A model generated the notes under the pieces. It saw only the letters and a program-made list of their open reading frames with translations, was not told where the DNA came from and did no database searches. This document shows positions 7,997 through 17,627 of a stretch of DNA of 45,320 nucleotides, piece by piece. Origin of the DNA: a virus (taxonomy: Duplodnaviria > Caudoviricetes). Both the position numbers and the translations under genes were made by a program. The stretch's first letter is position 1. Each line of letters begins with the position of its first letter. Location: the IMG/VR virus record IMGVR_UViG_3300037657_000015, positions 1-45,320 of that record; one strand, given 5' to 3'.

Positions 7997-8575
7997 ATGA
8001 AAAACATGAATAAAGCAATATATTTTGACATCGACGGTGTATGCTGTGATTTCATCTACGGGATCCGGTATGTGCTTCACTTGGAATCTGATTGGCAACC
8101 GCGCGAATGGGACATATCAAAGGAGTTGGGTATCCCATGGGCTGAAATAAACAAGGCAATATGTTCAAATCAGTATCACTGGTGGAACCTTCCCGAACTC
8201 CCGGACGGGATTAAAATATTTATATACGTAAAGAGAATGGCCGATGAAGCGGGGATACCGGTTATTGCAACTTCTAACGCGTTCCTTGCTGATACTGACT
8301 GGTGGACCGGGCGCGCGGAATGGATTAAATTCCATCTTGGAGAAGATGTTCCAATTGCGCTATGCACGGACAAATGCGTTCACGCTGGGCCGGGCCGATT
8401 GCTGATTGACGATTATTATCGCAACTATTCAAGATGGCTAAAGAGTGGCGGGTCGGCTATTTTGGTGCCGCGTCCGTGGAACACCTTTAAATATCCTACG
8501 GTCCCGATGCATGATGAAAACATCACAGAAATAATCAATGAGGTCAAATCATGGATAGGTGGAAGCCGTTCATGA
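7997..8575 (+). CDS. HAD-superfamily 5'(3')-deoxyribonucleotidase-like protein
   Basis: IYFDIDGV (motif I), LLIDD (motif IV) and PRPWN. Confidence 0.85.
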   Translation: MKNMNKAIYFDIDGVCCDFIYGIRYVLHLESDWQPREWDISKELGIPWAEINKAICSNQYHWWNLPELPDGIKIFIYVKRMADEAGIPVIATSNAFLADTDWWTGRAEWIKFHLGEDVPIALCTDKCVHAGPGRLLIDDYYRNYSRWLKSGGSAILVPRPWNTFKYPTVPMHDENITEIINEVKSWIGGSRS

Positions 8576-9282
8576 TCTGGCCTGACGATTACATCAACAA
8601 GATTATATGCGGTGATTGCCTGGAAGTGATGAAGGGCATCCCGGACGGCGCGGTTGACTGCGTTATTACCGACCCGCCGTATGGCGTTGGATACCAAGGA
8701 GGCCATTTCCATTCTGGAGATGTCAACATTAAAAGGCACCGCGAAAAACTCGCTAACGATGAAAATTCAGATATATATTATCCATTGTTAGAAGCAATTA
8801 AAAAGGTAACTAAAGGCCCGTGTTATATCTTCTTTTCAGGCACAAAGGCATTTGAGGTTTACGACGCGGCACGGATAAATAAGTTTGACATTCATGCTTT
8901 AATAATTTGGCACAAAACAAATGCAACATACGCGGCGATGAATTCACAATATAAACACAGGCATGAACCGATTTTGTATTGCAAACCCCGAGGCTGGAAC
9001 ACATTATGGTGTGGCCCAACTGATGAATGCACAGTTTGGGACATGAAGCGGAATCCAGAAAATATCCACCACCCAACGCAAAAGCCAGTAGACGTAATAA
9101 AGAGGATGATTCGCAATCACAATATAGACATCATCCTTGACCCGTTCTGCGGATCGGGCACAACCTGCGTAGCCGCCAAGCAGATGGGCCGCAAGTACAT
9201 CGGTATCGAGATCAACCCCGAGTACGCGGCAATCGCACAGCGCCGCGTGGACAACGTAGGCCACCAGTTGGAGGTATTTTAA
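8572..9282 (+). CDS. DNA amino-methyltransferase (N6A/N4C, beta class)
   Basis: GDCL, TDPPY, HPTQKP and LDPFCGSGTT in beta-class order. Confidence 0.93.
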   Translation: MIWPDDYINKIICGDCLEVMKGIPDGAVDCVITDPPYGVGYQGGHFHSGDVNIKRHREKLANDENSDIYYPLLEAIKKVTKGPCYIFFSGTKAFEVYDAARINKFDIHALIIWHKTNATYAAMNSQYKHRHEPILYCKPRGWNTLWCGPTDECTVWDMKRNPENIHHPTQKPVDVIKRMIRNHNIDIILDPFCGSGTTCVAAKQMGRKYIGIEINPEYAAIAQRRVDNVGHQLEVF

Positions 9283-9698: not shown

Positions 9699-10190
9699 AT
9701 GATTAAAAATCTAATCGTACATCACAGCGTAAGCGCGTGGGGGGGCGGGGAAACGATTAAACATTGGCATTGCGACCCCAAGCCACGCGGGAACGGATGG
9801 AAACATCCTGGATACCACGTGGTCATCACGAACAGGTACAACACGTATAACGCGTACATCAGTCGCATGCGCGGACAAGTCAAAGTTGACCGCATATTGA
9901 GAGAGACAATCCCATCGAACGGGTGCAAGTACGCTAACGACGACAGCCTGCAAGTGTGTTTAATAGGAGACTTTGACAAGCAGGAACCACTTGCAATGCA
10001 ATTTGAAAAGCTCATCGACCTGCTCGTTCACTGGTGTAAGAAATACAAACTTGTCCCCAATGACATCTACGGACACGGGGAAATGCAGCGCAAGATTGGC
10101 AAGGAAAAATACTCGAAAACGTGCCCTGGGAAACTCATGAACATGGACGCCGTGCGCATGGCCGTGGCGCTTAGATTGGCAGGGAAATGA
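9699..10190 (+). CDS. N-acetylmuramoyl-L-alanine amidase (Amidase_2, T7 lysozyme-like endolysin)
   Basis: IVHHS, GWKHPGYH, VCLIGDF, YGH and TCPG give the His/His/Cys Zn ligands. GGAGG RBS before ATG 9699. Confidence 0.9.
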   Translation: MIKNLIVHHSVSAWGGGETIKHWHCDPKPRGNGWKHPGYHVVITNRYNTYNAYISRMRGQVKVDRILRETIPSNGCKYANDDSLQVCLIGDFDKQEPLAMQFEKLIDLLVHWCKKYKLVPNDIYGHGEMQRKIGKEKYSKTCPGKLMNMDAVRMAVALRLAGK

Positions 10191-11563
10191 ACTACTTATC
10201 AATCTGCTCTGGTATCGAAGCCGCAAGCGTGGCGTGGAAACCCATGGGATGGAATGCCGTGGGGTTTTCAGAGATTGAACCGTTTCCTTGTTCGCTTTTG
10301 AATCACCATTATCCAGGCGTGAGAAATTACGGAGACATGACCAACTATAATGAGTGGAGCATTGATGGAGAATCAGTTGACCTTGTTTGCGGAGGAACCC
10401 CATGCCAATCATTCAGCGTCGCCGGACTCCGAAAGGGACTGGATGACCCGCGTGGTAACTTGGCCCTCGTCTTTCTCGGAATTGTTGATCGATTCAAGCC
10501 CCGATGGGTTTTATGGGAAAATGTCCCCGGCGTGCTTTCCGACAAGGGAAACGCTTTCGGGCAATTCGTCACCGGGCTATCAGAACTCGGGTATGGTGTC
10601 TGCTACAGAATTCTCGACGCTCAAAACTTCGGAGTCCCGCAGCGGCGCCGTCGCGTGTGGGTTGTCGGATATTTTGGAAACGGAGCGAACGTATTACAAG
10701 TGCCTGGAATGCGGGGAGGAATTCGAGGACAACTTTGCAACGGGGGCGAACACATTGGCGCCAGCGGAGTGCCCGAGATGCGGGGAGGAAAACCATGTGG
10801 AGTCCAGGACTGGCGACCTTCCGCAGCGGTACTTTTTGAGCGCGAAAGCCTGCGCCGGGATCTTACGCCGCGCCGCAAAACGCGGGAAAGAATTGCCGGC
10901 AGCATTGCTCCAAGCCTTACGGGAAGTGGCCGGGGCGTCGAGCGATGCGGAGAAAGCCGTGGACAAGACCCCGTGATACCAGTCGCACCGCCTCTCCGGA
11001 GCAATCCATATTGCGACAACGCCAGCCATGAGAATGGCCTTGTGTGTAGTGCAGTTACATCCAAATGGGCGAAAGGCACTGGCGGGCCGTCGGGCGATGA
11101 ATGTCAGAATCTTGTAACAGCCCAGCAAGTCCAGTGGTCAAGCGGCGGCGGCCAGTTGATGAATGACACCGCGCAAGCGTTGCGCAGCGGCGCCGAACAC
11201 AATTACCAGTTCGTGGCAGAGCCAGTGGTGACCGGGCCCACCAAAAACGTTTCAGCGTTCGGAGTAAAACGAGCAGGCGGGAACTGCTCTTTTGAAATCA
11301 CCCCAACTCTTGACTCTGGTGGTGGTGGTGGTTTCGGGAATGGCATGAGCGTGTTTGGGCCCACCATGCGTGTGCGCCGATTGACCACGCGCGAATGTGA
11401 ACGGCTCCAGGGATTCCCCGACGATTACACGCTTATCCCGCACAAAGGAAAGCCCGCGTCCGATTCAGCGCGATACAAGGCAATCGGTAACTCCTGGGCT
11501 GTACCGTGCGCAAGGTGGATCGGCGAACGCATACAGATGGTTGAGGATGTTCTTAACAAATGA
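10187..11563 (+). CDS. DNA (cytosine-5) methyltransferase
   Basis: Motifs I (CSGIE), IV (GTPCQSFS), VI (ENV), VIII (PQRRRR), IX (RRLTTRECERLQGFP) and X (IGNS). Confidence 0.95.
   Translation: MNYLSICSGIEAASVAWKPMGWNAVGFSEIEPFPCSLLNHHYPGVRNYGDMTNYNEWSIDGESVDLVCGGTPCQSFSVAGLRKGLDDPRGNLALVFLGIVDRFKPRWVLWENVPGVLSDKGNAFGQFVTGLSELGYGVCYRILDAQNFGVPQRRRRVWVVGYFGNGANVLQVPGMRGGIRGQLCNGGEHIGASGVPEMRGGKPCGVQDWRPSAAVLFERESLRRDLTPRRKTRERIAGSIAPSLTGSGRGVERCGESRGQDPVIPVAPPLRSNPYCDNASHENGLVCSAVTSKWAKGTGGPSGDECQNLVTAQQVQWSSGGGQLMNDTAQALRSGAEHNYQFVAEPVVTGPTKNVSAFGVKRAGGNCSFEITPTLDSGGGGGFGNGMSVFGPTMRVRRLTTRECERLQGFPDDYTLIPHKGKPASDSARYKAIGNSWAVPCARWIGERIQMVEDVLNK
10365..10976 (+). CDS. Overprinted +1-frame ORF inside the C5-MTase; M.EcoHK31I beta-polypeptide-like, with inserted Zn ribbon
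   Basis: Own GGAG RBS and ATG. Contains GKMSP..NSG..LSDILET and RYFLSAKACAGILRRA..LP..L..AL, plus a CLEC/CPRC ribbon. Confidence 0.78.
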   Translation: MENQLTLFAEEPHANHSASPDSERDWMTRVVTWPSSFSELLIDSSPDGFYGKMSPACFPTRETLSGNSSPGYQNSGMVSATEFSTLKTSESRSGAVACGLSDILETERTYYKCLECGEEFEDNFATGANTLAPAECPRCGEENHVESRTGDLPQRYFLSAKACAGILRRAAKRGKELPAALLQALREVAGASSDAEKAVDKTP

Positions 11564-15834: not shown

Positions 15835-15876
15835 AAACTAACATGATTGCATAAAGCATACCAGGAGGTTAGAATT

Positions 15877-16866
15877 ATGATAAAATCTGACAGTCAGCTT
15901 GAATCGATAGGCTTTTATACTCTTTCAGACGCCAGGGCTGCAAAAGCATCACGGACAAGCCCGCTTTCAAGATGCGAATTGATTTTAACGGACAGGTGCA
16001 ATTTCAAGTGCCCATATTGTCGAGGCCTTAGACAAGATTACTCTGGAGATATGCCGGTAGAAGATGCAGTAGAAATTATAAAACTATGGTCTTCAGATTC
16101 ACTTAAAAATATTAGACTGTCTGGAGGTGAACCAACACTTTACAAAGATATATTACGCGTTGTCTCAATATGTAAGGATGAAGGAATAGAGAGAATAGCA
16201 ATGTCAACAAACGGGTCAGCCGAAACTGATTTTTATCTTAATCTTGTGTCAAAAGGGATAAATGATTTTTCAATATCATTAGATGCTTGTTGCCACTCAC
16301 AGGCAAAAACAATGTCTGGAGGAATTGATGTTCTTGATAGGATTTCATCAAACATAAAAGTGCTGTCAAGTATTGTATATGTTTCTGTTGGCGTTGTTAT
16401 AACAGAAGATAACTCGAAAGACGTATGCGAAATAATAAGCTATGCGAATTCACTTGGTGTTTCAGATATAAGAATAATCTCGTCTGCGCAGAACAATGAG
16501 ATGCTGGTCAATGCGGTTAAAATTGAAGGGCGCGTTTTAGAATCAAATCCAATATTGAAATACAGAATAAACAACATAAAACAAGGTAGAAACGTAAGGG
16601 GGATCGCGAATGGTGATAGCAACAGGTGCGGACTCGTTATGGACGATATGGCCGTGTGCGGAAAATGGCATTTCCCGTGCATAATATATATGAGAGAGGG
16701 CGGAAACCAAATAGGCGTTGTTTCAGACAAAATGAGGGATGAAAGATATGAATGGTATTTGTCTCACGATACACACACAGACAAAATTTGCAAGAAAAAC
16801 TGTCTTGACGTTTGCATAGATTATAATAACAAGTTTGCAGCAACAAACCCAAATAGGCACATATAA
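15877..16866 (+). CDS. Radical SAM enzyme with Cys-rich C-terminal (SPASM/twitch-like) region
   Basis: CNFKCPYC, LSGGEP, STNG and SISLD. Further Cys in C-terminal PC and CKKNCLDVC. GGAGG RBS before ATG 15877. Confidence 0.92.
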   Translation: MIKSDSQLESIGFYTLSDARAAKASRTSPLSRCELILTDRCNFKCPYCRGLRQDYSGDMPVEDAVEIIKLWSSDSLKNIRLSGGEPTLYKDILRVVSICKDEGIERIAMSTNGSAETDFYLNLVSKGINDFSISLDACCHSQAKTMSGGIDVLDRISSNIKVLSSIVYVSVGVVITEDNSKDVCEIISYANSLGVSDIRIISSAQNNEMLVNAVKIEGRVLESNPILKYRINNIKQGRNVRGIANGDSNRCGLVMDDMAVCGKWHFPCIIYMREGGNQIGVVSDKMRDERYEWYLSHDTHTDKICKKNCLDVCIDYNNKFAATNPNRHI

Positions 16867-16883: not shown

Positions 16884-17627
16884 ATGAACGAGTATCGAGA
16901 ATTAGTACCAACAAAGAAAACGCACGTTCTTGTGTTGCGCAAGGTGAGTTCAAACATGACCTCGTATGGAGGGTTCAAGTGGCCGTCAAGCGGTCCAGTC
17001 GAAGCGCTGGATTGGGACAACAAGCCAAAATGCGGCGGCGGCTTGCACGGTCTGCCCTGGGGGGAAGGGTCTGTAGGACTGTTGGATGGTGACATTTGGA
17101 TGTGTTGCCTCGTAAATACGGATGATGGGTATATCTATGGAGATGGAGATCTCACAGACAAGTGCAAATTCAAACGCGCCGAAGATGTGTCAATCGGGAG
17201 CAAAGAAGAAGTTATCGCAAATATCGTAAAATATGCACCAAAAGGCGCTCGGGTCAATTTTGCCACGCAGACAGCCGTGGACAGGTCCACGCAGACAGCC
17301 GGGAACATGTCCACGCAGACAGCCTGGGACAGGTCCACGCAGACAGCCGGTGACTGGTCCACGCAGACAGCCTGGTACAGGTCCACGCAGACAGCCGGGG
17401 ACAGGTCCACGCAGACAGCCGGGAACATGTCCACGCAGACAGCCGGGAACATGTCCACGCAGACAGCCGGGAACATGTCCACGCAGACAGCCGGGGATGG
17501 AACTGTGCAAATAACAAGATGGTACGAAAACGGAAAATTAAAAACAGCATGCCGGATCGTTACGAAAGAACAGGCAGGCAAGACGTTCTTCGTAAAAGAC
17601 GGAGTTTGGACGGAGGTTAAAAGTTGA
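16884..17627 (+). CDS. Phage protein with CGGGLHG/WGEG N-terminal domain and 8-aa STQTAxxx solenoid-like repeats
   Basis: GGFKWP, CGGGLHGLPWGEG, KCKF and ten octapeptide repeats. Confidence 0.85.
   Translation: MNEYRELVPTKKTHVLVLRKVSSNMTSYGGFKWPSSGPVEALDWDNKPKCGGGLHGLPWGEGSVGLLDGDIWMCCLVNTDDGYIYGDGDLTDKCKFKRAEDVSIGSKEEVIANIVKYAPKGARVNFATQTAVDRSTQTAGNMSTQTAWDRSTQTAGDWSTQTAWYRSTQTAGDRSTQTAGNMSTQTAGNMSTQTAGNMSTQTAGDGTVQITRWYENGKLKTACRIVTKEQAGKTFFVKDGVWTEVKS
17262..17501 (+). repeat. Ten tandem 24-bp coding repeats
   Basis: Invariant CCACGCAGACAGCC core plus a 9-nt variable G-rich segment. Confidence 0.97.

What the first reader, a model, noticed from the sequence alone, without database searches (positions are those of the whole stretch)
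10187..11563. Dual-frame C5 methyltransferase whose overprinted beta-like chain carries an inserted Zn ribbon
Seen: a 203-aa +1-frame ORF (10365-10976, own GGAG RBS) lies wholly inside the MTase gene. Known: M.EcoHK31I is a two-chain C5-MTase whose beta chain is encoded in an alternative frame and supplies motif IX. As I recall it, its KM.P..NSG..LS.v.ET..FL segment resembles this ORF. Two differences stand out. The alpha frame here keeps motifs IX and X itself. The beta frame has a clean Zn ribbon (YKCLECGEEFE...ECPRCGEEN, about 10690-10800) between LSDILET and PQRYFLS, while the alpha frame reads as Gly-rich filler over the same bases. Inference: the insertion was selected for the hidden frame, so beta is translated and has gained a metal or nucleic-acid binding module.
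Basis: partly seen in the sequence, partly recalled or inferred. Interest (0 to 1): 0.72.

Follow-up and report, generated by a model that had tools for sequence, protein, structure and literature searches.

The report
Two-frame phage methylase with zinc-ribbon insert
A phage DNA-methylase gene holds a second, overlapping reading frame that related phages keep open and that likely encodes a partner subunit, and in this one genome the hidden frame carries a 43-residue, four-cysteine insert predicted to fold as a zinc ribbon, likely a tolerated add-on rather than a new function.

Summary
Observation confirmed. A 458-aa orphan phage C5-methyltransferase (alpha, 10187-11563) contains a nested +1-frame ORF (beta, 10365-10976) homologous to M.EcoHK31I beta (HHalign 99.7%). 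Beta is under selection: in loci picked only by alpha sequence outside the overlap, +1 is stop-free in 122 of 133 (null 2.8%; +2 frame 0 of 133). Alpha keeping motifs IX and X is the norm of this large phage family (P1 Dmt too; phage MM1 is annotated alpha/beta), not a peculiarity, so beta is kept for something other than motif IX: likely the post-motif-VIII hinge segment supplied in trans (modest sequence support; no complex model obtained). The 129-nt insert codes CxxC-x19-CxxC in the beta frame, where its coding signal lies, keeps both frames open, and shows an internal duplication. It is a singleton: 0 of 565 other beta cores carry it. A new binding function is not shown; a tolerated loop insertion is likelier. 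The scan noted dual-frame methyltransferases on other DNA before (38 notes); none with this insert turned up. New variant of a known kind.

The parts
10187..11563 (+). alpha chain: C5 cytosine DNA methyltransferase, 458 aa, motifs I-VIII, variable region, IX and X
   Evidence: model matches M.HhaI 1fjx_A Z 27.2, rmsd 2.3, 233 aligned
10356..10359 (+). GGAG ribosome-binding-like site 5 nt before the beta ATG
   Evidence: 41 of 49 relatives have GGAG/GAGG/AGGA there, partly imposed by alpha codons
10365..10976 (+). beta chain: nested +1-frame ORF, 203 aa, homologous to the N-terminal core of M.EcoHK31I beta, without motif IX
10391..10408 (+). alpha motif IV GGTPCQ, catalytic C73
   Evidence: sequence; invariant in alignment A2
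10517..10525 (+). alpha motif VI ENV
10584..10595 (+). beta NSGM motif (residues 39-42 in the EcoHK31I-type beta, where truncation lowers alpha-beta association)
10640..10654 (+). alpha motif VIII QRRRR
10662..10682 (+). beta LSDILET, left flank of the insert; equals LSQVLE(T) 65-70 of EcoHK31I-type beta
10683..10811 (+). 129-nt private insert; beta frame gives a CxxC-x19-CxxC zinc-ribbon-like segment, alpha frame gives 43 open filler residues; two imperfect internal copies (10698-10721 vs 10767-10790, 20 of 24 identical)
10812..10931 (+). beta C-terminal core GDLPQRYFLS..GILRRA..LP..L, two predicted helices, conserved in beta register
10904..11335 (+). alpha variable region (aa 240-383), presumed target-recognition modules; low confidence when folded alone
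   Evidence: pLDDT < 50; aa 371-384 align to the M.HhaI TL segment
11372..11419 (+). alpha motif IX
   Evidence: EcoHK31I-family beta profile hits alpha 392-418, E 3.9e-10
11468..11536 (+). alpha motif X (GNS at 11486-11494)

Best explanation
This phage gene is kept open in two overlapping frames and likely yields two chains from one mRNA, a catalytic alpha chain with all ten C5-methyltransferase motifs and a beta chain that would bind alpha and likely supply in trans the hinge segment that single-chain enzymes carry right after motif VIII; the 43-residue insert in beta is predicted to fold as a zinc ribbon and is likely a tolerated, recent addition to a surface loop. Shown: both frames, the motifs, homology of beta to M.EcoHK31I beta, family-wide selection on beta, the insert's frame and its uniqueness. 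Inferred: internal initiation at 10365 (or 10350), alpha-beta assembly, the hinge role, zinc binding, and the role of an orphan enzyme in protecting phage DNA from host restriction.
For: Beta frame open in 122 of 133 alpha-selected loci against a synonymous null of 2.8%, +2 frame 0 of 133, beta profile hit in +1 in 133 of 133. Over 20 codons of the C-core, beta residues are 0.77 conserved and alpha residues 0.44, with the third position of beta codons most variable (0.72/0.81/0.54; 24 alpha-selected rows). HHalign to EcoHK31I-family beta P 99.7%, E 4.9e-26, 142 columns; that family's profile hits the window beta in two pieces split by the insert. In M.EcoHK31I, N-terminal truncation of beta lowers association with alpha, and tethered activity falls between the 65- and 70-residue deletions (PMC2836561 passages), which are LSQVLE, the homologue of LSDILE. 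A broad beta-core profile hits the in-frame segment 35 and 50 residues after motif VIII in 2 of 8 single-chain enzymes, with 0 of 150 shuffles as high in each. At least 24 of 120 listed longer proteins have a near-full beta core followed in one chain by IX and X, so beta is part of the enzyme. Two relatives with an HNH gene inserted beside this site keep alpha open and restart the beta C-core. Insert: codon score beta 3.9, alpha -2.2, third -6.5, and 0 of 86 stop-free off-frame windows reach 3.9; both knuckles modelled at pLDDT 73-80 without alignment support.
Against: No expression, activity or binding data. The hinge homology is modest: 6 of 8 single-chain enzymes gave no significant hit, the narrow beta profile hit none of 13, and neither profile found a methyltransferase in the PDB. 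Beta alone folds poorly (pTM 0.36) and its fold search gave only generic helix pairs (best Z 5.9). Part of the beta-to-beta homology could be carried by alpha's conserved motifs in the overlap. Alpha has every canonical motif and models as a full M.HhaI-like large domain, so it might work alone. One of 133 loci (L392) has a single stop in beta. The ribbon scores below curated cut-offs and rests on one contig with no reads.
Confidence: 0.55

Rival explanations
1. The ribbon is an adaptive gain: it gives beta a DNA- or protein-binding module that changes target range, processivity or localisation of the enzyme.
For: All four cysteines are intact, the coding signal is in beta, and the insert sits next to the segment EcoHK31I needs for activity. 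With the genome's codon usage a ribbon-coding insert would leave alpha open only 176 of 20,000 times.
Against: Singleton: 0 of 565 other beta cores, region search finds only itself among 11 candidates, 0 of 22 pattern matches. Alpha stays open in 8% to 22% of trials under other codon usages, and an open alpha is a survival filter, not proof of benefit.
Confidence: 0.15
2. The insert is a relic of a mobile element, such as a zinc-finger piece of a hidden out-of-frame HNH endonuclease, or an assembly chimera, and does nothing.
For: Hidden HNH genes with flanking zinc fingers invade phage methylases and keep the host frame open (PMC11855218 passages); two relatives carry an HNH gene a few codons upstream of this site. 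One contig, no reads.
Against: Those HNH genes lie in the third frame, the ribbon in the beta frame; no HNH family among its hits; the insert looks like two imperfect copies of one unit (P 0.0005-0.002 against synonymous resampling); it keeps both frames and lands exactly between two conserved motifs.
Confidence: 0.12
3. Beta is not a free chain: ribosomes shift between frames so that the beta core is made fused to alpha's variable region, IX and X, or to alpha's N-terminal part.
For: Natural in-frame fusions beta-core+IX+X exist, some in clusters of 66-341 members; motif IX is in beta in 72 of 79 EcoHK31I-family loci and in alpha in 5, so segments switch frame in evolution.
Against: Conserved ATG at a fixed offset (175 nt in 39 of 77) with an SD-like site (41 of 49); M.EcoHK31I works from two separate genes. 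I ran no test for slippery sites.
Confidence: 0.08
4. Alpha is self-sufficient and beta is a regulator (inhibitor, chaperone or translational control) rather than a needed subunit.
For: Alpha has all ten motifs; subtypes shorten beta's N-terminus.
Against: The same core drives association and activity in M.EcoHK31I and is fused into the enzyme chain in many relatives.
Confidence: 0.1

Closest known systems
M.EcoHK31I (E. coli, YGGCCR), alpha/beta C5-methyltransferase, as described in PMC2836561; near-identical allele fetched as L244 (NZ_CP024886.1)
   Same: Nested +1-frame beta inside alpha; homologous beta core (26% identity pairwise; HHalign 99.7%); same NSGM and LS..LE motifs.
   Different: There motif IX is at the end of beta and a restriction endonuclease gene is adjacent; here IX is in alpha, beta starts about 45 codons earlier, no endonuclease was recognised, and beta has the ribbon insert.
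Streptococcus phage MM1 1998 orf13/orf14, annotated 'C5 methyltransferase alpha subunit / beta subunit' (DQ113772.1)
   Same: Phage gene with nested beta that ends after the LSDILE..YFLS core without motif IX.
   Different: Shorter beta (141 aa), no insert; annotation only, I saw no functional test; I did not check where IX lies in its alpha.
Phage P1 Dmt (NC_005856.1) and mycobacteriophage Omega gp127
   Same: Unannotated nested +1 ORFs of 162 and 157 aa with the same core; Dmt keeps IX and X in the main frame.
   Different: Dmt is fused to a Dam domain; Omega's main frame is split into gp127 and gp128; neither has the ribbon.
FmdB-type zinc ribbon (PF09723, TIGR02605)
   Same: Y-x-C-x-x-C-G-x-x-F-E...C-P-x-C-G pattern.
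   Different: Below both cut-offs; embedded in a loop of another protein, not a free-standing small protein.
ShiLan domain: hidden out-of-frame HNH endonuclease in phage methylases (PMC11855218)
   Same: An insertion in a phage methylase whose meaning lies in another frame while the methylase frame stays open.
   Different: ShiLan is about 200 codons, third frame, with its own start and stop and an HNH domain; this insert is 43 codons, in the beta frame, with no nuclease motif.

Membership tests
C5 cytosine DNA methyltransferase (PF00145) | Motifs I, IV (PC), VI (ENV), VIII, IX, X and M.HhaI-like fold | tested here: met
C5 cytosine DNA methyltransferase (PF00145) | Methylation activity and target sequence | not testable with these tools
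   needs assay
M.EcoHK31I-type two-chain enzyme | Beta ORF nested in another frame of alpha | tested here: met
M.EcoHK31I-type two-chain enzyme | Beta homologous to EcoHK31I beta | tested here: met
M.EcoHK31I-type two-chain enzyme | Motif IX in beta and absent from alpha | tested here: not met
   IX is in alpha 396-411; none in beta. So not a strict member; it works like one.
M.EcoHK31I-type two-chain enzyme | Both chains made and needed for activity | not testable with these tools
   no expression or assay data
M.EcoHK31I-type two-chain enzyme | Paired with a cognate restriction endonuclease | tested here: inconclusive
   none recognised by Pfam among 30 other window ORFs scanned; smaller ORFs not scanned; neighbours are an amidase and a helicase
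MM1/P1-Dmt-like phage dual-frame subtype (alpha complete, beta core only) | IX and X in the main frame, +1 ORF ending after the LSDILE..YFLS..LP core | tested here: met
   the subtype name is mine
FmdB zinc ribbon (PF09723/TIGR02605) | Score above curated cut-off | tested here: not met
   25.7 < 34.4 bits; 27.2 < 31.3 bits
Zinc ribbon (general) | Two CxxC knuckles with short strands | tested here: met
   sequence; strands 110-112 and 119-121, pLDDT 73-80 at the knuckles, 55-59 between and after
Zinc ribbon (general) | Binds zinc | not testable with these tools
   needs metal analysis
ShiLan-like hidden HNH element | Third-frame ORF with an HNH domain inside the insert | tested here: not met
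   third frame of the insert has the lowest coding score of the three forward frames and no HNH motif by eye; it was not scanned against Pfam

The most novel reading that the evidence does not exclude
A zinc ribbon was born in place, by duplication of one CxxCGEE knuckle inside an overprinted frame, and now gives a new DNA- or protein-binding arm to a hidden beta subunit that thousands of seemingly complete phage C5-methyltransferases, P1 Dmt included, need as a trans-acting hinge and that annotation misses.
Probability: 0.2. Interest if true: 0.75.

Novelty: new variant of a known kind. Interest (0 to 1): 0.45.

Why it matters
The account I read explains EcoHK31I beta as the carrier of motif IX. 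Here a very large phage family keeps the beta core although alpha has IX, so the core has its own job; that predicts that cloning or recoding such 'complete' methyltransferase genes without the hidden frame (codon optimisation, for example) would inactivate them, which is easy to test with P1 Dmt. The insert is a rare snapshot of a folded-looking domain added to one frame of a dual-coded gene while the other frame tolerates 43 filler residues. As a singleton with no shown function it is a curiosity more than a new system.

Tried and rejected
Alpha-beta complex prediction: not available, so no verdict on binding. Deep profile search of the insert against cluster representatives: never ran, so distant relatives of the ribbon remain untested. 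Sequencing reads: not obtained, so the junctions and expression are unchecked. Beta profiles against the PDB: nothing significant. Beta model against 48,161 chains: generic helix pairs only. ESM Atlas: no usable feature hit for beta; four structure rows at TM 0.28-0.37; insert hits at 0.76-0.77, below the 0.9 bar. PHROGs: only weak beta hits. Donor in the same genome: only the site itself matches. Intein reading rejected by eye: no C/S start or HN end. 'Alpha keeps IX/X' as a novelty rejected. My first conservation figures used loci picked by beta and are circular, so I repeated the test on alpha-picked loci. Target site not inferred: several palindromes are depleted but none can be assigned. 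Paper searches found no report of a zinc ribbon in a beta chain or of the family's size; the library lacks most subscription journals. PMC3483164 and PMC3706429 (passages) held nothing on this.

Full report
Setting. The window is a whole virus record with direct terminal repeats (127 bp), a P22-like portal, helicase, primase and amidase. The gene lies between the amidase and the helicase. Pfam recognised no restriction endonuclease among 30 other ORFs scanned, so it is likely an orphan methyltransferase; a second, N6/N4-type one lies at 8551-9282.

Alpha (10187-11563, 458 aa) is a C5-methyltransferase (PF00145 E 1.5e-54; model matches M.HhaI at Z 27.2, rmsd 2.3, 233 aligned) with motifs IX and X in its own frame. 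A +1-frame ORF (10365-10976, 203 aa) lies wholly inside it, behind GGAG. Beta carries C113, C116, C136 and C139 in a 43-residue segment between LSDILET and GDLPQRYFLS.

Beta is a real, selected frame. It has 1,546 relatives at E <= 0.001 among 1,800 candidates. Loci picked with beta are nested in +1 (frame +1 in 239 of 239), but that is circular. I therefore picked 160 loci with alpha's first 59 or last 64 residues, both outside the overlap. After dropping 21 duplicates, 5 without motifs IV-VIII in the stored DNA and 1 truncated, the +1 frame was stop-free in 122 of 133, the +2 frame in 0 of 133, against a mean of 2.8% when alpha's codons were resampled; the beta profile hit the +1 frame in 133 of 133. 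I read 10 of the 11 exceptions: 7 have an intact core with a later start, 2 carry an HNH insertion, 1 has a single stop. In the C-core, conservation is in beta register: beta residues 0.77, alpha 0.44, beta codon positions 0.72/0.81/0.54 (24 rows that the anchor pattern could place).

Relation to M.EcoHK31I. PMC2836561 (passages; supplement text; its Figure S1 is a picture I could not see) states that beta is encoded in another frame of alpha, holds motif IX and is needed for activity. One of its primers retrieved an E. coli locus with a 309-aa alpha, a nested 176-aa beta and a convergent NotI-family endonuclease; the starts match the paper's primers and one residue differs from a primer, so it is a near-identical allele. 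Its beta is a core plus motif IX. The core matches the window's beta (26%, E 1e-7 pairwise; family profiles P 99.7%, E 4.9e-26; two pieces split by the insert), while its motif IX matches the window's alpha (E 3.9e-10). Motif IX is in beta in 72 of 79 EcoHK31I-family loci but in alpha in 120 of 133 and in beta in 0 of 133 of the window's family (13 matched neither pattern). P1 Dmt and Omega gp127 have unannotated nested ORFs with the same core, and phage MM1 1998 is annotated alpha/beta in GenBank.

What beta likely does. If alpha has IX, the core needs another job. Three leads point to a structural part supplied in trans. In EcoHK31I, trimming beta's N-terminus lowers association with alpha, and tethered activity drops between the 65- and 70-residue deletions; residues 65-70 are LSQVLE. 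At least 24 of 120 listed longer relatives carry a near-full core in one chain with IX and X (148 found); some may be frameshift errors, but related partial-core forms stand for 66-341 sequences. Single-chain enzymes show a similar D-I-L-E-x5-K-Y-x-L/C-S segment in frame shortly after motif VIII; a broad core profile found it in 2 of 8 (0 of 150 shuffles as high for each), not in the other 6, and found no PDB entry. The alpha-M.HhaI alignment leaves HhaI 178-246 unmatched. This hinge model is inference with modest support; no complex model was obtained.

The insert. Targeted searches found no other carrier (0 of 22 pattern matches). Its coding signal is in beta: score 3.9 against -2.2 and -6.5, with 0 of 86 stop-free off-frame windows as high, though 88% of true in-frame windows score higher (window shifted one codon). 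Resampling alpha's codons yields the four cysteines in 311 of 20,000 trials; resampling beta's leaves alpha open in 176 of 20,000 with this genome's usage but 8-22% with GC-richer usages. The two halves are more alike in DNA than their residues require (20 of 24 bases; P 0.0005-0.002), which hints at duplication of one knuckle. It resembles FmdB-type ribbons below cut-off and both knuckles are modelled at pLDDT 73-80. In alpha it falls after the motif VIII strand and is modelled as disordered. Two relatives take about 200 extra residues a few codons upstream, from a third-frame HNH gene, with alpha open and the beta C-core restarting behind it; this matches the published ShiLan kind of element (PMC11855218 passages) and shows that the site tolerates insertions. 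One methyltransferase, L504, also has a longer loop in the equivalent in-frame segment (by eye).

Verdict. Dual-frame coding is real and known in kind; the scan's own notes list 38 such findings on other genomes, the eight shown mostly with the recognition part or motif IX in the second frame, and none combining it with a ribbon turned up (sequence look-up empty). What is new here is a beta core kept without motif IX across a very large family and a singleton ribbon in that hidden frame. A tolerated insertion is likelier than an adaptive one. Motif numbering I-X, the label TRD and the usual role of orphan phage methyltransferases are recalled knowledge. PMC4351075 (passages) describes a different split methylase in Cluster O phages, with no products detected. 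Interest 0.45; new variant of a known kind.

Noticed in passing
L284:2483-3091 and L308:2471-3073: Third-frame HNH_3 genes (Pfam E 2.8e-7, 6.9e-8) inserted just after motif VIII of the same methyltransferase family; alpha stays open (653 and 577 aa), beta's N-part is broken and its C-core restarts behind the HNH stop. ShiLan-like element in a dual-frame host; 2 of 133 loci; a scan with L284's HNH found only itself and 3 weak partial hits.
   Followed up: partly
L081:6714-7202 (phage P1 dmt): Unannotated 162-aa +1-frame ORF with the beta core inside P1 Dmt; tblastn with beta hit 521 plasmid records, the listed ones mostly under Dam-family annotations.
   Followed up: partly
L082:1264-1737 (mycobacteriophage Omega gp127): Unannotated 157-aa beta ORF; the main frame is split into gp127 and gp128, and a further 171-aa ORF overlaps gp128.
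   Followed up: no
P0123-P0242: Frame-crossover forms: beta core fused to variable region, IX and X; P0143 crosses from beta to alpha at RYF/FERASL; P0150 joins a beta core to an HNH domain.
   Followed up: partly
L493, L497: A second dual-frame subtype on Bacillus and Lacticaseibacillus plasmids, whose +1 frame reads LLPTPTAS after motif VIII instead of LSDILE.
   Followed up: no
window, whole: Strong depletion of CTAG (2 vs 40 expected), CTGCAG (0 vs 9.9), CCGCGG (2 vs 15.6) and CGGCCG (2 vs 12); likely restriction avoidance, target of this enzyme unknown.
   Followed up: no
window:8551-9282, 15847-16866, 16884-17627, 1790-2377: Second methyltransferase (N6/N4), radical SAM protein, ice-nucleation-like repeat protein and pentapeptide repeat protein.
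   Followed up: no
window:10504-10839: The third frame is also open for 111 codons across the insert; low coding score, not kept open in relatives.
   Followed up: partly
L392: Single stop codon in an otherwise intact beta frame (real loss or sequence error).
   Followed up: no
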